A DNA stretch of 64,000 bases from Patescibacteria group bacterium (lineage in GTDB: Bacteria; Patescibacteriota; Microgenomatia; Levybacterales; UBA12049), in NCBI GenBank assembly GCA_038062115.1, contig JBBTXS010000012.1, forward strand, positions 23,141 to 87,140. Reading direction: 5' to 3'. Positions 1 through 8,267 of the stretch are shown here, piece by piece. The first letter of the stretch is position 1; each line of letters begins with the position of its first letter. Below the pieces are notes generated by a model that had not been told where the DNA came from, made no database searches, and worked only from the letters and a program-made list of their open reading frames with translations. A program made the position numbers and the translations under genes.

Positions 1-674
1 TTATATCCCTTTTATGTGGACTTCAATCTGAAATAATCGGAGAAAGGGAAATCTTTCTGCAGGCACGAAAAGCTGTTTATAATGCCGTGCAAAATAGATC
101 GTTATCAAAAGAATGTTTCTGGAAAATTAACTCACTGTTTGACATAGCAGAGCAAATTAGAAATAAGCATAGCCTTACTCAGCTGGAAAATTATTCAACA
201 ATAGGCGCAGATCTACTTAATAGAAAAATTAAAAGCCCGGCAGTTATAGCAATTATTGGGGGAGGATATATGGCGGAAATTTTTTTCAAAAAAGTAAATA
301 TGTCTAAAATTAAAAAAATTATATGGATTAATAGAAGTCTTGATAAGGTAAAAAAAATTGTCAATGACCAGAATAATATTTTAAAAGATTTTTTTGAGTT
401 CTACAATTTTGAAAACGTAGAGGAAAAATTACGTAGTGCTGACTTTATTTTCTCCGCGGCTCATAATTGTGGCGGATTATTTTCATCGTTGCGTTTGGAA
501 AAGACGAAATGTGTAATTGATATTTCTTATCCGGCATTATTTTCCGATAAAGTTTCATGCGAATTTTATTCGATTAACAATACATATTTTGAAAATTTAT
601 TGAAGAATCCTGTACCAAAAATGTCTGTACTTGCAGCAGAAAAGGAAATAGATGCCTTGTTTAAATTTTTATGA
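1..674 (+). CDS. Glutamyl-tRNA reductase-like NAD(P)-binding protein; N-terminus lies outside the window. The ORF track starts it at a GTG at 87, but the frame is open from position 3.
   Basis: The frame translates from position 3 as ...EIIGEREIFLQARKAVYNA..., which resembles the HemA ETQILGQVK motif. A Rossmann motif AVIAIIGGGYMAE is followed by NRS, consistent with the NRT motif of the HemA family. Confidence 0.45.
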   Translation, partial: ISLLCGLQSEIIGEREIFLQARKAVYNAVQNRSLSKECFWKINSLFDIAEQIRNKHSLTQLENYSTIGADLLNRKIKSPAVIAIIGGGYMAEIFFKKVNMSKIKKIIWINRSLDKVKKIVNDQNNILKDFFEFYNFENVEEKLRSADFIFSAAHNCGGLFSSLRLEKTKCVIDISYPALFSDKVSCEFYSINNTYFENLLKNPVPKMSVLAAEKEIDALFKFL

Positions 675-1336
675 AAACAAATTGGATTGAAAAAGAATTG
701 GAGAAATTTGTAGAGCGAGGGAGCATATTGTTTGTTACGGCCCAAGGTGCAGATAAAAGTTCCGATATCGATATATATTGTGTTATTAAAAATGGATTAA
801 AATCCCAAATTCATATTTATAAAAAGAATAATTGTTGGATTGAAGTTTTTATTGATACGTGGGATGACATGGCTAGTAAGATAAAAAACTTTGATGAGAT
901 TGCAGTTGGTTTTATTTCAAAAATGGATCCATTAGCTCGCTTGAGCAACGTTTACTACCATCGTAAAGCTTTAAAACTTATTGGGGCAAAATATAAACTT
1001 CCCAATGAACGAAAAAGGCTATTACAATATCGCATCAAAGTGTTAGCATCAAAATATTATTCATCAGTTAATGAAAAGAATGAGCATTTTTTTGTTGGAC
1101 AGTTAATGCCATTTCTAATAATGGCTGTTTTTAGTAAATATGGAGTTTGGCCTAAGTCGCCAAAAAAATGGATTTGGCAATTGGAACAGATTAAAAAACC
1201 AGAATCAAAACAATTACTCAAAATTCTAGACGGCAAAGCAAAAGTTGATAATTTAATTGAGGAATTGACGTTAGATTTTGAAGGAATTTCTCTAGAAAAA
1301 AACAAGGAAAATAATAAAATTACTTATTTAGGATAA
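671..1336 (+). CDS. Nucleotidyltransferase-domain protein (Pol-beta-like NTase fold; ANT/Lnu-like or MNT-like)
   Basis: GSILFVTAQGADKSSDIDIYCV matches the GS-x9-13-DxD nucleotidyltransferase signature, and the C-terminal part is helical. The gene overlaps the upstream gene by 4 bp. Confidence 0.55.
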   Translation: MKTNWIEKELEKFVERGSILFVTAQGADKSSDIDIYCVIKNGLKSQIHIYKKNNCWIEVFIDTWDDMASKIKNFDEIAVGFISKMDPLARLSNVYYHRKALKLIGAKYKLPNERKRLLQYRIKVLASKYYSSVNEKNEHFFVGQLMPFLIMAVFSKYGVWPKSPKKWIWQLEQIKKPESKQLLKILDGKAKVDNLIEELTLDFEGISLEKNKENNKITYLG

Positions 1337-1648
1337 GCATATATTAAATGAATAAGACACTAACGACAGATATCTCTAATTTACTGAAACTTCCTTTATT
1401 CTCCGTTAGGGATAAAAAAATTAAAAATGAATATGAAAGACGGTTTTTTAATGGTCGTTTTGGACAGATCCGAGAGGGCTTGATCATGCCAGAGCGGCCA
1501 TTTGAATTTGGAAAAATTTTTGCGTTTTTTCTGAGCTGACAGTTTTTGGAGCGAGTTGGAAGGCCGAGCAATATAAAATAGTAGGAGGGAGCGGAAGCGA
1601 CCGACTACAATGATAACATGAAAGAAGTCCGAACTTTTTCGTAAAGGA

Positions 1649-1751
1649 GCTCACATTGGGACTTTTCAAAAGCCTGCGTTTGGGGACTTTGGACGAGAGA
1701 TTGCGTTTGGAGGTCTGCAAAGCCCAAATTGTAGGATGGGAAAAGTTGCCG
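1649..1751. repeat. Left arm of a perfect 103-bp inverted repeat flanking the serine recombinase gene
   Basis: Its reverse complement is identical to 3198..3300. It contains sub-repeats gcgtttgggg and gcgtttggagg. Confidence 0.9.
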
Positions 1752-1799
1752 GTTAAAAGAGAAGAAAAAAACGCAAAAATTAATAAGAAATAAACTGCC

Positions 1800-3362
1800 A
1801 TGAAATATATAGGATATTGCAGGAAATCAACGGATGAAAAAGATAGACAGATTTTATCTATAGAAGCTCAAATAGCAGAGCTGACCGAATTTGCTAGACG
1901 CGAAGGTCTGGAAATTTCAGAATTTATTACAGAGGCAAAGACAGCAAAAATTCCAGGCCGTGAACAATTTGACAAACTCTTAATGCTGCTTGAAAAAGGA
2001 AAAGCTCAAGGAATTATCTCATGGCATCCCGACCGCTTAGCTCGTAATTCCATTGATGGCGGAAAGATTATTTACTTACTCGATACAGGAAAACTTCTTG
2101 ACCTAAAATTCCCATCACATTGGTTTGAGAATACACCGCAAGGGAAATTTATGCTTAGTATCGCTTTTAGTCAGTCGAAATATTATATTGACAATCTTTC
2201 CGAGAATGTTAAAAGAGGTTTAAGACAAAAATTAAGAAACGGTGTTTATCCCGGAAAAGCATTTTGGGGATATGCGAACAATAAAGAGTTGGGAATTATT
2301 GAGGTTGATGTGACAGAGTCCAAGATTATCAAAAAGGCTTTCCAGTTATTTGCTAGTGGCGGAAAAACTTTTATGGATATTTCCCGCTTCTTACATAAGC
2401 ATGGACTTACCCAAAAAAACGGCAAAGATCTAAAAATAGACAGGATAAAAGAAATTCTTTCAAATAAATTTTACATTGGCATCATCTTTTACGCAGGAGA
2501 ATACTACGAAGGAAAACATAAGTTGTTTATTTCGAAAACATTATTTGACCGAGCGCAAAAACAGTTCAAATTCACTGAAAGATCAAAGCCCAATAACAAA
2601 CACAATTTATCTTTCTTAGGACTGTTGAAATGCGGTGAATGTAAAGCAAGTATTACCGGAGAAATGAAAATAAAATATTACAAAGAAACCCAAAGAAAAG
2701 CTGAATATATTTATTACAGTTGTACTAAAAAACTGGGAAACTGTTTGCAGAAACCAATTCCAGAGCCGGAACTGGAATTACAAATAAGAAAAGCGGTTAG
2801 CGATGTGGCCTTGCCCGAAAGTTGGGCTAGCGATTGGTATAAATGGCTTGAAAGAGATGAGATAACAGAAAAACAATTGAAAGAAGAAAATTTACAGAAA
2901 TTAAATGAAGAAATAAAAGCTCTGGATCAAAAATTAAATTTTCTTTTAGATAGTTACTTGGACAGCGTTATTGATGCCGATATCTACAAGAAAAAGAAAA
3001 ATGAATTATTCGAGGAGAAACTAAGAAAACAAGAAGAAATTACCAAGTTGCAGACCAATGGTTCAAGTTGGCTCGAACCTTTCAAGGAATTCGTAGATAG
3101 CGCATTACAATGCGGAAAAATTGCGCGCGAAAAAAAAACAAAAGAAGAATTGGCATTCTTCGCAAAAACTGTCGGCTCGAACTTCTTTTTAACTGATCGG
3201 CAACTTTTCCCATCCTACAATTTGGGCTTTGCAGACCTCCAAACGCAATCTCTCGTCCAAAGTCCCCAAACGCAGGCTTTTGAAAAGTCCCAATGTGAGC
3301 GGGATACGGGAGTCGAACCCGTCTTTTCAGATTGGAAATCTGACGTTGAACCGCTCAACTAA
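1800..3362 (+). CDS. Large serine recombinase (resolvase/invertase N-terminal domain, recombinase domain and zinc ribbon). The ORF has no stop until it has read through the right inverted repeat and tRNA-Gly, so the true 3' end is uncertain.
   Basis: The N-terminus YCRKSTDEKDRQILSIEAQ...RLARN is a serine-recombinase catalytic motif. The Cys cluster CGECKASITGEMK...YYSCTKKLGNC is a zinc ribbon typical of large serine recombinases, followed by a coiled-coil region. Confidence 0.8.
   Translation: MKYIGYCRKSTDEKDRQILSIEAQIAELTEFARREGLEISEFITEAKTAKIPGREQFDKLLMLLEKGKAQGIISWHPDRLARNSIDGGKIIYLLDTGKLLDLKFPSHWFENTPQGKFMLSIAFSQSKYYIDNLSENVKRGLRQKLRNGVYPGKAFWGYANNKELGIIEVDVTESKIIKKAFQLFASGGKTFMDISRFLHKHGLTQKNGKDLKIDRIKEILSNKFYIGIIFYAGEYYEGKHKLFISKTLFDRAQKQFKFTERSKPNNKHNLSFLGLLKCGECKASITGEMKIKYYKETQRKAEYIYYSCTKKLGNCLQKPIPEPELELQIRKAVSDVALPESWASDWYKWLERDEITEKQLKEENLQKLNEEIKALDQKLNFLLDSYLDSVIDADIYKKKKNELFEEKLRKQEEITKLQTNGSSWLEPFKEFVDSALQCGKIAREKKTKEELAFFAKTVGSNFFLTDRQLFPSYNLGFADLQTQSLVQSPQTQAFEKSQCERDTGVEPVFSDWKSDVEPLN
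3198..3300. repeat. Right arm of the 103-bp perfect inverted repeat
   Basis: It is the exact reverse complement of 1649..1751 and overlaps the 3' end of tRNA-Gly by about 3 bp. Confidence 0.9.
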
Positions 3363-3368
3363 TCCCGC
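3298..3368 (-). tRNA. tRNA-Gly (anticodon UCC)
   Basis: Manual fold of the reverse complement gives acceptor GCGGGAT/ATCCCGC, D-stem GTTG/CAAC, anticodon stem TCAGA/TCTGA with loop TTTCCAA, and T-stem ACGGG/CCCGT with loop TTCGACT. Confidence 0.85.
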
Positions 3369-3521
3369 GCATATTGATTTTATCAAATGCGATCAGTATT
3401 GTGCAAATGGAAAATTTAAGCTAAAATAACTGTGAACGTCGGGGTGGCGGAATTGGAGCGGAGTCCCGACGAGTCGGGACGAGCTCGCTTGCGAGCGTAG
3501 CGCGAGACAAGCGTGGAAGAC

Positions 3522-3605
3522 GCCGCGGTGGTGGAATGGTAGACACGAAGGCCTTAAGAGCCTTTGTTCCAAAAGAACGTGAGAGTTCGACTCTCTCCCG
3601 CGGCA
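3522..3605 (+). tRNA. tRNA-Leu (anticodon UAA), class II with a long variable arm
   Basis: Acceptor GCCGCGG/CCGCGGC, anticodon stem AAGGC/GCCTT with loop CTTAAGA, variable-arm hairpin GTTC-CAAAA-GAAC, T-stem GAGAG/CTCTC with loop TTCGACT. Confidence 0.8.
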
Positions 3606-3607
3606 CT

Positions 3608-3681
3608 CGGGGAGTAGCTCAGTTGGCTAGAGCGCACGGTTTGGGACCGTGAGGTCGGAGGTTCAAGTCCTCTCTCCCCGA
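3608..3681 (+). tRNA. tRNA-Pro (anticodon UGG)
   Basis: Acceptor CGGGGAG/CTCCCCG, D-stem GCTC/GAGC, anticodon stem CACGG/CCGTG with loop TTTGGGA, T-stem GGAGG/CCTCT with loop TTCAAGT. Confidence 0.85.
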
Positions 3682-3699
3682 CCCCATACTCATTTCTAA

Positions 3700-4515
3700 T
3701 CAATCTCTAATAGAGAATATTGTGCCAGTTTTTGGCAATGTCAATCTTGGAAGCGAAAAAGGTTCGGGGTTTGAATCTTCTTCTTTAATTTTTGCATTAG
3801 GACAGTTTTTTAAATGACAATCAACTTCTTGGCAAAGTCCGCAGAGGTATTTTTTTTCGTGCTTTTTTTCTATCGCAACATATGTAATTTTATACATATT
3901 ATTTGGAAACGTGTCTATAATGGTACGGGTTTGGGATTCTTCCTTACGTAAAGTTGGAGTGTTGATAACTAAACTATCATGTATTCCTTTTCGCGCATTC
4001 GCCTCAACTTGCGCTCTCATAAGAATTAACGCAAGCTGATCTCCTGAAACTTCACGCAAAAATGCAATAATCTCTGCAGCTATGCTTCGCACATCTGTGG
4101 AATATTTTGATATAACGCTTGCCGCCAAACTTCCCGCAGTTTCCCAGTCGTGTCCACCATGATAACAATGCATCATGTCAACTTTATATTTGTCGCTTCC
4201 AAAGCCTCGGGCACGACCTTCATGCGTATCAACTCCTCCTCCAGCAGCAATCACTTTCATCCTCTCAAGAGAAACCAAACCGCTAATCGTAGTTCTTCCC
4301 AAAGAATCGCCTGTTGGTATAACAGAAATGCTTTCAATGGGTACCCCATACGCCAGAGCTACAAGTGCGTGATTTAATTCATGCGAAGCAACACTTATCG
4401 ACTCTCGTGAAACCAAACCCGAACGATTTTCCGGAACAAAAGAAAGAGGCATCGCCTTTTGGAGAGGCGTTTCAACTAATTGCTGTGTAGGGCGACTTAA
4501 CTCTGCTGCCGCCAT
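3700..4515 (-). CDS. Stand-alone FtsH-like (peptidase M41) zinc-metallopeptidase domain protein with a C-terminal Cys4 zinc-ribbon-like tail and no AAA ATPase domain
   Basis: SVASHELNHALVALAYG...KVIAAGGGVDTHEGRARGFGSDKYKVD matches the FtsH protease-domain pattern vAyHEaGHAlva...GGraAE...GasnD. The C-terminus has CGLCQEVDCHLKNCP. Local GC content is visibly higher than the surrounding sequence. Confidence 0.55.
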   Translation of the reverse strand: MAAAELSRPTQQLVETPLQKAMPLSFVPENRSGLVSRESISVASHELNHALVALAYGVPIESISVIPTGDSLGRTTISGLVSLERMKVIAAGGGVDTHEGRARGFGSDKYKVDMMHCYHGGHDWETAGSLAASVISKYSTDVRSIAAEIIAFLREVSGDQLALILMRAQVEANARKGIHDSLVINTPTLRKEESQTRTIIDTFPNNMYKITYVAIEKKHEKKYLCGLCQEVDCHLKNCPNAKIKEEDSNPEPFSLPRLTLPKTGTIFSIRD

Positions 4516-4530
4516 AGTAAGCAGATTTTA

Positions 4531-6724: not shown

Positions 6725-7498
6725 ATGAAAACACTAAATCTTCTTCTTACATTGTCTTCCCTAAACGTCATTTTAGTTACAATAGAAAGATTTTCTTTCA
6801 CAACAAAAATTATCTTACAACCATATAGTTTTCTAAGACTTCATGAAGTATTCCAAATAACAGTGCTAATACTTATAACTATTGTTATCCCCTTTTTTCT
6901 ATTAAAAGAAATTACTCATAATTTTGATTCGCTAAAAACTGCAAAAGGCACAATCTTAGGACTTTTTTTCGTAGTTGGCGTTTATTTATATGGCACTGGA
7001 AACGGGGTACACGAACTCGCAAGCTACTTATTTAATACATTTTGTCCTATAAAAAATTTTTCATCCTTACAATGCCAAAGCATGTATTTTAATGATTACT
7101 ATTTTGGAAACATATTGTATTTTGTAGGAGCGTTCTTAATAAATATATCTTTGATAATTTTTGAGCGAATAAAACCTAACATTAATTTCTCTAAGAAAGA
7201 TTTAGCCGTAACTTCTATAAATAGTCTTATTCTTGCATTTGCAATTTTTGCTTATTCAGCTTTTGATCGGGTGTTAGTTGGTCTTGTCTATTCTATGTTT
7301 ACTATGATTGTAGCCTATTTCTTTTTATTTACCGCGCACCACAATGCCCCGCTCGTCAGGACAATGCCCCGCCCGTTAGGTCGTGGTGCGGGGTTTACTT
7401 GGAAGAAAAAGTATATTTATATTCCATTTACTTTGTATATAACAATCGCCTATACAATTGGAACCCTAGCCTCAATAGCGATTCGATTTATTCGATAA
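6725..7498 (+). CDS. Polytopic membrane protein of unknown function; its C-terminal region carries an in-frame small repeat element
   Basis: Multiple hydrophobic helices. The ORF could start at 6650, but 6725 (MKTLNLLL) looks more plausible. Residues ...TAHHNAPLVRTMPRPLGRGAGFT... are encoded by the repeat at 7332..7399. Confidence 0.45.
   Translation: MKTLNLLLTLSSLNVILVTIERFSFTTKIILQPYSFLRLHEVFQITVLILITIVIPFFLLKEITHNFDSLKTAKGTILGLFFVVGVYLYGTGNGVHELASYLFNTFCPIKNFSSLQCQSMYFNDYYFGNILYFVGAFLINISLIIFERIKPNINFSKKDLAVTSINSLILAFAIFAYSAFDRVLVGLVYSMFTMIVAYFFLFTAHHNAPLVRTMPRPLGRGAGFTWKKKYIYIPFTLYITIAYTIGTLASIAIRFIR
7332..7399. repeat. Small GC-rich hairpin repeat (family C, ends in GGTGCGGGGTTTACT); related to 26621..26724
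   Basis: Terminal inverted repeat cgcaccac/gtggtgcg, tandem sub-units (a)caatgccccgc, and the same 3' terminus ggtgcggggtttact as the copy at 26.7 kb. Confidence 0.7.
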
Positions 7499-8267
7499 TA
7501 GTATCTTGGCTCCCTCCCAACGCATGAACCCAATCTAATAATGGAGCCCTACGGCTAAAGCCGTGGTGCATATTTAATGCCCTCCTTCGTCCCGCTCAGC
7601 GGGACTACGGAGGGTTATCCGCCACTAGCCGAGGCGACATCCGCCGTAGCTTACCCCACATTCATCCACGACTAAAGTCGTGGTTTTCTGCGAAGGCGGA
7701 TTAATTAAGGAAATAAAACTGCTTAAATGAGATGATGTTATGAGTAGGGGAAAAGATACGAATCTAAAAAAATGTGTAATGCTTATTATCTTTACCTGAT
7801 CTAATCAGAAACTTTTCAAAATTAAGCAGATTTATTACTTTAATCTGCTAGACTAGGAATGAGTATATCAGAAAATGCATGGAATGTCAATAATCACTAT
7901 AGGATAGTAATTAAAGAGGTGTTGAGTCAAGCCACCATTCGGCAATACCCATGGTTTAAGCATGGAGGGCGGAATAGATTTGCAAAAGAGGAAAGATTTC
8001 CCTCAGGGTAAATAATTGATTTCCACTGTTGCAGTGAAGCATAAATTTGGTTCCAATTCTGAAACATTTGGGCTACAGCACGTAATAGTTCACTCTTCTG
8101 ACATGAATTTTATTCTTCGATCCGTCAGCTGACGGAGAGAAGTTTTCAATGATTCTAGTTCTCTCGGCCTTTGGCGGATCGAACAATAATTTTTATGTCA
8201 GAAGTCTGAGTAGTTACTACATCACCTGTAGTTGATTTTGACTAACTCCTCATATATAATCCAAATT

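What the first reader, a model, noticed from the sequence alone, without database searches (positions are those of the whole stretch)
1340..4520. Large serine recombinase between perfect 103-bp inverted repeats, abutting a tRNA cluster, with a GC-richer peptidase gene alongside
A 520-aa large serine recombinase gene (1800..3362) is bracketed by a perfect 103-bp inverted repeat (1649..1751 and 3198..3300). The right arm lies inside the recombinase ORF's 3' end, which reads on through tRNA-Gly(UCC). tRNA-Leu and tRNA-Pro follow immediately, and then a gene of visibly higher GC. This architecture resembles a Hin-type invertible segment (recombinase inside its own invertible DNA), but with a large serine recombinase and very long repeats. 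Alternatively it could mark the boundary of an integrative island at a tRNA attB. Perfect identity over 103 bp implies ongoing recombination or gene conversion between the arms.
Basis: partly seen in the sequence, partly recalled or inferred. Interest (0 to 1): 0.8.

Follow-up and report, generated by a model that had tools for sequence, protein, structure and literature searches.

The report
Flippable tRNA-targeting serine recombinase cassette
The recombinase gene between 103-bp perfect inverted repeats is real and belongs to a large, apparently undescribed family of small mobile elements in ultra-small (CPR) bacteria that insert at the 3' ends of many different tRNA genes, carry a built-in imitation of a tRNA end, and are found in both orientations.

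Summary
A 520-aa large serine recombinase (LSR) gene (1800-3362) lies between perfect 103-nt inverted arms (1649-1751 and 3198-3300). The right arm ends on the 3' end of tRNA-Gly(UCC).

This is a family trait, not a one-off. In 35 related CPR loci the arms have a median length of 103 nt and are at least 97% identical in 33. The outer end of one arm supplies the last acceptor bases and discriminator of an adjacent tRNA, which varies over 15 or more amino-acid specificities. The other arm abuts a conserved T-loop mimic whose GTTCGA core sits 4 nt further out.

The arms evolve in concert: 100% identical within a locus, about 90% between orthologous loci. Recombinases at least 90% identical, with identical arms, continue into different tRNAs or into the mimic (the flipped state). 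One strain pair (99.9-100% identical) shows the cassette inverted.

In 19 or more loci the mimic region has a second perfect inverted copy 1-6 kb away, abutting the chromosome.

Best reading: a tRNA-targeting integrative element with two inverted attP-like copies. Integration splits one copy into attL and attR. The intact copy is what brackets the LSR gene with inverted repeats.

Flipping of this particular copy is not shown, and no paper describing the arrangement was found.

The parts
1441..1570 (+). Conserved non-coding leader of the cassette. It contains box 'a' (1514-1530, AAATTTTTGCGTTTTTT), an inverted copy of the recombinase codons for KTVGS (1533-1548), and a hairpin ending in CGAGC (1549-1570).
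   Evidence: Homologous to the equivalent stretch in L088, L091, L093 and L094, with box 'a' invariant. Also homologous to L096, L003 and L005 and to L084. The overlapping ORF 1348-1539 is not conserved as a protein: stops occur in L003.
1571..1648 (+). Mimic region (M2R): an AT-rich stretch plus a hairpin that imitates a tRNA T-loop (GTCCGAACtttttCGtAAAgga, 1627-1648). Proposed P-type half-site of an attP-like junction.
   Evidence: Conserved outside the left arm in loci with unrelated tRNAs. The GTTCGA core ends 16-17 nt from the arm edge, against 12-13 nt for the real T-loop on the tRNA side, in 30 of 35 loci. A near-identical inverted copy lies at L001 2420-2645, off-window.
1649..1751 (+). 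Left arm of the inverted repeat. Its outer end, GC|T|CAC, duplicates tRNA-Gly positions 71-72 and the discriminator. GC (1649-1650) is the inferred crossover dinucleotide. Internal direct repeats: GGGACTTT (1658, 1683) and TGCGTTTGG (1675, 1702).
   Evidence: The minimal core shared by all three junction types is 2 nt (L009, L013).
1766..1782 (+). Box a' (AAAAAACGCAAAAATT), the inverted partner of box 'a', 18 nt upstream of the recombinase start codon.
   Evidence: 16 of 16 nt complementary to 1515-1530. Invariant in five loci. It closes a long-range stem in the predicted leader fold (z = -3.0).
1800..3362 (+). Large serine recombinase ORF (520 aa). Conserved protein sequence runs to about residue 481 (..YNLGFADL). 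The last ~40 codons are arm sequence and antisense tRNA.
   Evidence: Pfam. 6212 homologs with E <= 1e-10, from sources named Patescibacteria or CPR. Alignment A1 shows S10 and R467 invariant. Closest solved structure: SPbeta SprA/YokA, E = 9e-9.
3198..3300 (-). Right arm of the inverted repeat. It encodes recombinase residues 467-500. On the minus strand it supplies the end of tRNA-Gly and forms its 3' trailer.
3298..3368 (-). tRNA-Gly(UCC), the target tRNA. Its T-arm is the proposed B-type half-site of the attR-like junction.
   Evidence: ARAGORN. Rfam 64.8 bits, full length. The orthologous element sits at the same tRNA in L088 and L090.

Best explanation
The cassette is the recombinase module of a CPR-specific family of small (about 2.5-8 kb) integrative elements that insert at the extreme 3' end of tRNA genes.

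The element's attachment junction consists of a T-loop mimic, a core of 2 or more nt corresponding to tRNA positions 71-72, and then the arm. The element carries this junction twice, as a long inverted duplication.

Integration uses one copy and splits it. The arm joined to the tRNA becomes attR, with the arm re-supplying the tRNA's discriminator and CCA. The mimic joined to the chromosome becomes attL.

The second copy stays intact inside the element, in inverted orientation. As a result the LSR module is bracketed by inverted arms, and the cargo module is bracketed by inverted mimic regions.

Exchange between the arms flips the LSR module. The exchange could be made by the LSR at the core or by homologous recombination within the arms. 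Frequent exchange or gene conversion keeps the arms identical.

The window's copy has an intact recombinase, perfect arms and an intact tRNA. It lacks a clean attL: its distal mimic copy, 5.6 kb left of the window, abuts a decayed arm, and the DNA in between includes GluRS. It is therefore probably stranded for excision but still able to flip.

Shown: the anatomy, its recurrence across the family, concerted evolution, the existence of both orientations, and many tRNA partners.

Inferred: the attP/attL/attR assignment, the two-attP free form, and which enzyme makes the flip.
For: Family-wide architecture. Of 80 loci, about 50 have inverted repeats of 50 nt or more. The right arm starts at about codon 465 and ends 4-6 nt inside a minus-strand tRNA. 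In 35 complete loci the arms have a median length of 103 nt; 20 are 100% identical and 33 are at least 97% identical.

tRNA partners. Gly, Pro, Val, Tyr, Arg, Trp, Glu, Lys, Leu, Gln, Ser, Ala, Ile and Asn.

Mimic. It is conserved, with a constant +4-nt offset of the GTTCGA core. From memory of the LI integrase half-site work of Rutherford and Van Duyne, this offset resembles the difference in zinc-ribbon-domain motif position between attP and attB half-sites.

Concerted evolution. The arms of L088 are 100% identical to each other but 90.4% identical to the window's arms. Two cassettes on one contig are 64% identical in protein and have unrelated arms. Decayed copies lose arm identity: L094 is at 90%, and L093 has no left arm.

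Mobility. Within clusters of at least 90% identity, identical arm-encoded tails continue into 2 to 5 or more different tRNAs. The sequences diverge exactly at the arm's outer end. Related cassettes lie in unrelated flanks.

Flipped state. P0009/L095, P0101/L096, L046 and L080. P0199 has the exact tail predicted for a flipped L006. L103 and L104 are inverted relative to each other at 99.94-100% identity, and arm variants place the exchange in the outer 63 nt.

Second repeat pair and element boundaries. A distal inverted mimic copy (97-100% identical) shares only 2-11 nt of core with the arm and then runs into the chromosome. It is often within 10-110 nt of the next tRNA of a cluster; in L006 the order is Leu, Val, element, Phe, Gly.

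Cargo. Variable content: RVT_1, DNA methylases, HigBA-like genes, transporters.

The window's own distal copy.
Against: No excised circular form or untouched attB was observed. L084 is better read as a deletion derivative that retains leader DNA.

Canonical LSRs recombine only attP with attB. An attP-like by attR-like inversion is not a standard LSR reaction, so the flip may be RecA-mediated.

Flipped contigs with perfect arms are short. An assembler using a k-mer shorter than the identical stretch could in principle have mis-traversed them; k of 63 or less is not excluded for L103.

The exact flipped proteins for the window and five other loci are not in the 15-billion-protein collection.

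The window's genome departs from the typical layout. Its distal mimic abuts an arm remnant rather than the chromosome, and the enclosed 7 kb holds GluRS.

Nothing explains why the full 103 nt is duplicated rather than a half-site of about 25 nt.
Confidence: 0.66

Rival explanations
1. A fixed, non-mobile phase-variation switch of the Hin type. In this view the locus exists to toggle expression of the recombinase itself, of the leader RNA or of neighbouring genes, and the tRNA adjacency is incidental.
For: The recombinase lies inside the repeat-bounded segment, and both orientations exist. In close relatives a promoter-like TTGAAA-N16-TATATT outside the segment points into it. About 90% of copies have the leader and recombinase co-oriented.
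Against: Near-identical recombinases with identical arms sit at several different tRNAs and in unrelated flanks. The arm always supplies the tRNA's terminal bases. Typical copies have attL-like and attR-like ends inside tRNA clusters and carry variable cargo. No regulated downstream gene is evident. The enzyme is an LSR, not a small invertase.
Confidence: 0.1
2. An IS-like transposon whose terminal inverted repeats are the 103-nt arms and whose transposase is the serine recombinase. In this view the unit from arm to arm moves on its own.
For: Long perfect repeats bound the recombinase gene. In L097 the arms enclose the recombinase plus a restriction-modification pair. Many contigs break at the arms.
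Against: The mimic region and leader outside the left arm travel with the recombinase to different tRNAs and contexts. There is no target-site duplication. Copies within one genome are old paralogs at 64% identity, not fresh transpositions, and the window holds only one copy. Serine-recombinase chemistry cannot excise DNA between inverted sites unless the core dinucleotide is palindromic, and many loci have TC, GT, CA or CT cores.
Confidence: 0.08
3. An ordinary integrase next to attR of an integrated element, where the left arm is a functionless segmental duplication kept identical only by RecA-dependent gene conversion. In this view the internal mimic|arm junction is never used by the recombinase.
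For: A 100-bp inverted repeat 1.4 kb apart can be homogenised by homologous recombination. This is general knowledge; an example is tufA/tufB. The exchange mapped in L103/L104 lies anywhere within the outer 63 identical nt. Canonical LSRs do not recombine attP with attR.
Against: The duplication is conserved across the whole family, down to 43% protein identity. It has sharp, constant boundaries, a conserved mimic with fixed +4 spacing, and a dyad (AAGTCCGAA..TTGGGACTT) across the junction. That is hard to reconcile with a neutral relic. In L027 real tRNAs abut both arms, which suggests the second junction is recombination-competent.
Confidence: 0.14
4. Assembly artefact: a collapsed or chimeric repeat in a metagenome-assembled genome.
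For: The source is a MAG, and inverted repeats longer than the k-mer are hard to assemble.
Against: An independent assembly gives the identical arrangement. Orthologous and paralogous loci from dozens of assemblies and assemblers show the same layout, each with its own arm sequence.
Confidence: 0.01

Closest known systems
Phage and ICE large serine integrases (SPbeta SprA, Bxb1, phiC31, LI integrase)
   Same: Same domain set: Resolvase, Recombinase and zinc ribbon. SprA is the best solved-structure match. The junctions behave like attL and attR around a core of 2 nt or more. The two half-site types differ in the spacing of the distal motif.
   Different: Only distant sequence similarity (E about 1e-8). 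The family is almost absent from viral contigs, with 2 real hits in 2.9 million. The elements are tiny. The attP-like junction is duplicated in inverted orientation and is flanked by repeats of about 100 nt. The ORF runs through the att site into the tRNA. Near-identical enzymes use many different tRNAs.
Hin/Gin/Cin/Pin invertible segments
   Same: As with Hin, the recombinase gene is inside the DNA it appears to invert. Both orientations are found in nature. The enzymes share serine-recombinase chemistry.
   Different: Those enzymes are small invertases of about 190 aa that use 26-bp sites plus a Fis-bound enhancer and switch a neighbouring gene. Here the enzyme is a 520-aa LSR with 103-nt arms, no evident switched gene, tRNA targeting and mobility.
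Tycheposons and other tRNA-targeting genomic islets (10.1101/2020.12.28.424599)
   Same: Small cargo-carrying elements that integrate at tRNA genes in streamlined genomes. A minority of tycheposons use an LSR.
   Different: Of 937 tycheposons, 910 use tyrosine recombinases, and they are flanked by direct partial-tRNA repeats of about 40 nt. Here there is no direct tRNA repeat beyond a core of 2-11 nt, and the hallmark is a pair of long inverted repeats plus a T-loop mimic.
Yeast 2-micron plasmid (FLP/FRT within 599-bp inverted repeats); from memory
   Same: By inference, the free form would have two unique segments separated by two long, identical inverted repeats that contain the recombinase target. 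The recombinase is encoded in one segment and flips it.
   Different: FLP is a tyrosine recombinase on a eukaryotic plasmid that does not integrate. The circular form proposed here has not been observed.
SSV1-type archaeal integrases; from memory
   Same: The recombinase ORF overlaps its own attachment site, and the target is a tRNA gene.
   Different: SSV1 integrase is a tyrosine recombinase whose gene is split by integration. Here only the unconserved C-terminal tail changes with the junction partner.

Membership tests
Large serine recombinase (LSR) | N-terminal resolvase catalytic domain with a serine nucleophile | tested here: met
   PF00239, E = 2e-22, 80 bits against a cut-off of 23.3. 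S10 within YCRKST is invariant in 26 homologs.
Large serine recombinase (LSR) | Recombinase domain (PF07508) followed by a zinc-ribbon domain (PF13408) | tested here: met
   53.9 and 30.7 bits, both above their cut-offs. C278, C281, C308 and C315 are invariant.
Large serine recombinase (LSR) | Coiled-coil insertion in the zinc-ribbon domain that controls synapsis | not tested
   Residues about 330-430 look helical and charged by eye. No structure was predicted.
Hin/Gin-type DNA invertase system | Small serine recombinase (about 190 aa) with a C-terminal helix-turn-helix | tested here: not met
   The protein is 520 aa with LSR domains.
Hin/Gin-type DNA invertase system | A segment bounded by inverted sites is found in both orientations | tested here: inconclusive
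   Met in relatives. For this copy, the exact flipped protein is not on record, and no reads were available.
Hin/Gin-type DNA invertase system | Short (about 26 bp) crossover sites plus a Fis-dependent enhancer | tested here: not met
   The arms are 67-161 nt, median 103. The enhancer is not testable.
Site-specific integrative element at a tRNA gene | One end lies at the tRNA 3' end, and the tRNA is restored by element sequence | tested here: met
   The arm overlaps the last 4-6 nt of an intact tRNA in 30 or more loci. tRNA-Gly scores 64.8 bits at full length.
Site-specific integrative element at a tRNA gene | A second end shares the crossover core, and occupied and empty sites are comparable | tested here: inconclusive
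   A distal mimic|core|chromosome junction is present in 19 or more loci, inside tRNA clusters. No untouched attB was recovered. The window's own copy lacks this junction.
Site-specific integrative element at a tRNA gene | An excised circular form, or a recombination directionality factor | not testable with these tools
   No circle junction was seen, and no conserved accessory gene is shared among cargo segments.
Insertion sequence or transposon with terminal inverted repeats | Terminal inverted repeats bounding the transposase gene | tested here: met
Insertion sequence or transposon with terminal inverted repeats | Target-site duplication and multiple near-identical copies per genome | tested here: not met
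   No direct duplication at the arm ends. The window has one copy. Copies on the same contig are 64% identical.

The most novel reading that the evidence does not exclude
These are 'amphimeric' integrative elements. Their LSR reads the universally conserved T-arm of tRNA genes as attB, so one enzyme can use many tRNAs.

Because an intact attP-like site survives inside every integrated copy, the element can flip itself. It can also recombine with further tRNA genes, as in L027 where real tRNAs abut both arms. That would drive inversions, deletions and replicon fusions between tRNA loci, making these elements a major engine of genome rearrangement and gene exchange in CPR bacteria.

The T-loop mimic with its +4-nt offset would be a natural illustration of how LSRs tell attP from attB. 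It could also be a starting point for integrases with a ready-made target in every genome.
Probability: 0.3. Interest if true: 0.88.

Novelty: new variant of a known kind. Interest (0 to 1): 0.78.

Why it matters
Large serine recombinases are the main enzymes used for inserting large DNA cargo in genome engineering. Their site-selection rules are known from only a handful of phage enzymes.

This family offers three things. It has thousands of members. Each carries, side by side, a natural target half-site (a tRNA T-arm) and an element-borne imitation of it at a fixed 4-nt offset. And near-identical enzymes use many different tRNAs. Together these make attP/attB discrimination and multi-target recognition directly testable.

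The family also gives CPR/Patescibacteria a defined, abundant class of mobile elements. The mobile genetic elements of these bacteria are poorly known. The elements carry defence and accessory genes, and they could explain rearrangements around tRNA clusters.

For genome curation, the family explains two recurring problems: 'recombinase' ORFs that run antisense through tRNAs, and contigs that break at these loci.

Tried and rejected
1. Prophage integrase. The viral-contig scan gave only 2 real hits. One of them, L097, is a small restriction-modification-carrying version rather than a phage.

2. L084 as a virgin empty site. Rejected because it retains the conserved leader DNA fused to tRNA-Gly at a GAGC pseudo-site, and it holds an orphan mimic copy.

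3. Small ORF 1348-1539 as an accessory protein or directionality factor. It is not conserved as a protein.

4. A shared island to the left, suggested by ResIII genes in L088 and L091. The proteins are only 34% identical over 96 aa.

5. Crossover at the inner boundary of the arm. Excluded by the arm variants in L103/L104.

6. Excision between the inverted arm ends through a palindromic core. Many loci have non-palindromic cores.

7. Homology search with the predicted flipped C-terminus. The word index rejected the 53-aa query, so the search was wasted.

8. Exact look-up of six predicted flipped proteins. None was found.

9. Rfam. Nothing but tRNAs, either in the region at E <= 1 or in the whole window at gathering threshold.

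10. Promoter and terminator scans. Uninformative: 8 promoter-like sites against 5.4 expected.

11. Five full-text literature searches and two papers read. No description of this arrangement was found.


Full report
OBSERVATION

The window contains a 520-aa ORF (1800-3362, plus strand) with the three domains that define a large serine recombinase (LSR): Resolvase, Recombinase and Zn_ribbon_recom. All three score above the Pfam cut-offs.

The ORF is bracketed by arms at 1649-1751 and 3198-3300. These are 103 nt and perfectly complementary. A 51-nt arm probe occurs exactly twice in 64 kb, against zero in 100 shuffles.

The right arm lies in the 3' end of the ORF. It ends on the 3' end of tRNA-Gly(UCC), which occupies 3298-3368 on the minus strand. 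The ORF therefore reads antisense through the tRNA. tRNA-Leu(UAA) and tRNA-Pro(UGG) follow on the plus strand.

The next gene (3700-4515, minus strand) is only mildly GC-richer. Its peptidase M50 hits are below threshold, although it carries an HExxH motif. It is chromosomal: it keeps its MFS neighbour in a related contig that has no recombinase.

An independent assembly is 100% identical over 8 kb, so the repeat is not an artefact.

A FAMILY TRAIT

The recombinase has more than 6000 homologs, and the sources that name them call them Patescibacteria or CPR. Protein conservation continues past the first arm codon: R467 is invariant, and conservation runs to ..YNLGFAEL. After a variable stretch, most homologs read 'G[IVF]EP', which is the antisense translation of a tRNA T-loop.

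I fetched 80 related loci at 43-65% protein identity. About 50 have inverted repeats of 50 nt or more flanking the gene. Most of the loci without a detected repeat are cut by a contig end.

In 35 loci with both arms complete:
- the arms are 67-161 nt long, median 103;
- 20 are 100% identical and 33 are at least 97% identical;
- the right arm always starts near codon 455-466;
- the right arm ends 4-6 nt inside a convergent tRNA.

The tRNA differs from locus to locus: Gly, Pro, Val, Tyr, Arg, Trp, Glu, Lys, Leu, Gln, Ser, Ala, Ile and Asn, covering 28 or more anticodons. The outer end of both arms therefore carries the last acceptor-stem bases, the discriminator and, where encoded, the CCA of the adjacent tRNA.

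THE MIMIC

The DNA just outside the left arm is conserved across loci that have nothing else in common. It is a small hairpin, GGTTCGAAttttTTCGtAAA, that imitates a tRNA T-loop.

In 30 of 35 loci the GTTCGA core ends 16-17 nt from the arm edge on this side, against 12-13 nt for the real T-loop on the tRNA side. That is a constant +4 offset. From what I recall of the LI integrase half-site structures, attP and attB half-sites differ in just this way, by the position of the motif bound by the zinc-ribbon domain. I therefore read the mimic as a P-type half-site and the tRNA T-arm as a B-type half-site. This assignment is an inference.

In the window, a 9-nt dyad (AAGTCCGAA / TTGGGACTT) straddles the left junction. 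The arm also contains internal direct repeats spaced 25-27 nt apart, which are candidate protein-binding subsites.

CONCERTED EVOLUTION

L088 and L090 carry the orthologous element at the same tRNA-Gly(UCC). Their two arms are 100% identical to each other but 90.4% identical to the window's arms.

Two cassettes on one contig are 64% identical in protein and have unrelated arms, yet each cassette has matching arms of its own.

Decayed copies lose the match. L094 lies next to a degenerate tRNA and its arms are 90% identical. L093 has lost its left arm cleanly.

So arm identity is actively maintained within each cassette. It is not a by-product of recent copying.

BOTH ORIENTATIONS

If the segment between the arms flips, the ORF should leave the arm into the reverse complement of the mimic. 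For the window the predicted tail is ..SQCELLYEKVRTSFMLSL.

- P0009 is 86% identical to the window's recombinase and ends ..SQSELLYEKVRTSFMLSL. P0060, P0087 and P0101 have equivalent tails, whereas about 80 of 120 homologs read into a tRNA.
- In DNA, L095 and L096 show recombinase, arm, core, reverse-complement mimic and reverse-complement leader in that order.
- L046 shows tRNA-Glu running into the arm and then into the recombinase 5' end. L080 is flipped and has diverged arms. L027 has real tRNA-Glu genes against both arms.
- Five of ten clusters at 90% identity or more contain both kinds of tail. P0199 has exactly the tail I predicted for a flipped L006.
- L104 and L103 are the same strain: 99.94% identity over 4747 nt of flank and 100% over 1343 nt of recombinase. 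The cassette is inverted relative to the same Big_13, HigB-like and HigA-like neighbours. Three arm variants, at positions 64, 66 and 89, place the exchange in the outer 63 nt. That excludes the inner boundary.

Caveat. Flipped contigs with perfect arms are short. An assembler with a k-mer shorter than the identical stretch could mis-traverse them. L080, L027 and L095 have diverged or single arms and are immune to this problem. The exact flipped protein of the window's own copy is not on record.

MOBILITY

Within the same clusters at 90% identity or more, identical arm-encoded sequence continues into 2 to 5 or more different tRNAs, and the sequences diverge exactly at the arm's outer end. Cassettes that are 86-91% identical in DNA lie in unrelated flanks on both sides.

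The family is almost absent from viral contigs, with 2 real hits in 2.9 million.

A SECOND REPEAT PAIR, AND THE MODEL

In 19 or more of 34 loci, the 70-139 nt outside the left arm (hairpin end, AT-rich stretch, mimic and core) has a 97-100% identical inverted copy 0.7-6 kb further left.

That distal copy shares only 2-11 nt of core with the arm and then runs into unrelated chromosome. It often lies 10-110 nt from the next tRNA of a tight cluster. In L006 the order is Leu, Val, element, Phe, Gly. The smallest shared core is GC, which corresponds to tRNA positions 71-72.

The enclosed segment is variable cargo: reverse transcriptases, DNA methylases, a HigBA-like pair, transporters, enzymes and secreted proteins. 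In L097 a restriction-modification pair lies within the arm-bounded segment.

The simplest reading is as follows.
- The distal junction, mimic|core|chromosome, is attL.
- arm|core|tRNA is attR. These two are in direct orientation.

By inference, a free element would then have a recombinase module and a cargo module separated by two inverted attP-containing repeats. That layout recalls the yeast 2-micron plasmid. Integration through one copy leaves the recombinase module bracketed by inverted arms and the cargo module bracketed by inverted mimic regions.

This model accounts for the long repeats, their sharp outer boundary, the tRNA-derived bases at both arm ends, the conserved mimic and the flipping.

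It leaves three things unexplained:
- why about 100 nt is duplicated rather than about 25 nt;
- why the leader contains a decayed inverted copy of the recombinase 3' end and the a/a' pair;
- whether the flip is made by the LSR or by RecA.

THIS COPY

The window's cassette has an intact catalytic domain, perfect arms and an intact tRNA-Gly.

Its distal mimic copy lies off-window, at L001 2420-2645, which is 5.6-5.8 kb left of base 1. That copy has 1 mismatch in about 95 nt through the core. It then continues into a diverged arm of another subtype (about 75% identity) and a remnant a' box, with no recombinase behind it. The roughly 7 kb in between includes GluRS, a GluTR-like gene and the 221-aa gene.

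This copy therefore lacks a clean attL and may be stranded for excision. Its history probably includes a second, now decayed, cassette or an inversion.

L084 is a related contig in which tRNA-Gly is fused directly to the leader at ..CGA|GC|... It is best read as a deletion of the whole mimic, arm, recombinase and arm unit at a GAGC pseudo-site, not as a virgin target.

COMPARISON WITH KNOWN SYSTEMS, AND NOVELTY

The enzyme is a bona fide LSR. Its closest solved relative is SPbeta SprA, and only distantly.

Functionally the element combines two known things: integration at a tRNA, and a recombinase-containing invertible segment. It fails the defining features of Hin-type systems, which have a small invertase, short sites and an enhancer. 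It also fails those of IS elements, which show target-site duplication and identical copies.

Tycheposons are the nearest ecological analogue. They are tyrosine-recombinase elements flanked by direct partial tRNAs.

Five full-text searches found no description of this arrangement.

I rate it a new variant of a known kind. It is well supported as a family-level architecture, and its mechanism is only partly resolved.

Noticed in passing
window 3438-3456, with 3457-3520 downstream: GTCGGGGTGGCGGAATTGG is the 5' fragment of a different tRNA-Leu(UAA), the one that is intact in L084 (1181-1265). GC-rich hairpins follow it. The window's intact tRNA-Leu/tRNA-Pro pair has a different sequence and is inverted relative to its arrangement in L084 and L088. 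So the tRNA cluster next to the cassette has been rearranged.
   Followed up: partly
window 7500-7760: An ORF-free, GC-rich stretch (0.46-0.49 in a genome of about 0.32) with several strong hairpins, for example cctccttcgtcccgctcagcgggactacggaggg. A 20-nt tandem duplicate lies just upstream at 7341-7380. It looks like a structured RNA but has no Rfam match.
   Followed up: partly
L084 1690-1767: An orphan copy of the hairpin, AT-rich stretch and T-loop mimic (GGTTCTAACTTTTAGGTAAAGAC) with no arm or recombinase after it, lying between tRNA-Pro and a DUF2283 gene. It may be a scar of a past recombination event.
   Followed up: no
P0007, P0012, P0014, P0021, P0022, P0036, P0041: A subgroup of homologs is 865-908 aa long, at about 45% identity over the full query length. 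Several of their tails also read into tRNA T-loops (..TRFELM....GFEPLT..). The extra ~370 residues were not characterised.
   Followed up: no
L006 4536-5531 and L065 3007-4152: Reverse-transcriptase genes (RVT_1, E = 6e-26 and 1e-21; 38% identical to each other) recur as cargo in two unrelated elements. They may be retron-like or defence-type reverse transcriptases.
   Followed up: no
L016 2918-4516: A cargo gene encodes a fusion of a LexA DNA-binding domain, a Peptidase_S24 domain and an N6/N4 DNA methylase. This is an unusual architecture.
   Followed up: no
L001 963-1973, about 6.2-7.2 kb left of window base 1: Beyond the distal mimic copy lie a Peptidase_M78 (ImmA/IrrE-like) gene, a 128-aa partner and a DUF4379 protein. 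These are typical regulators of mobile elements, which suggests an older element remnant on that side.
   Followed up: no
window 87-1336: A GluTR_N/Shikimate_DH-like gene follows GluRS (upstream in L001) and overlaps a 221-aa gene with no family match by 4 nt. A glutamyl-tRNA-reductase-like gene is unexpected in a CPR genome, since these genomes are usually thought to lack haem synthesis.
   Followed up: no
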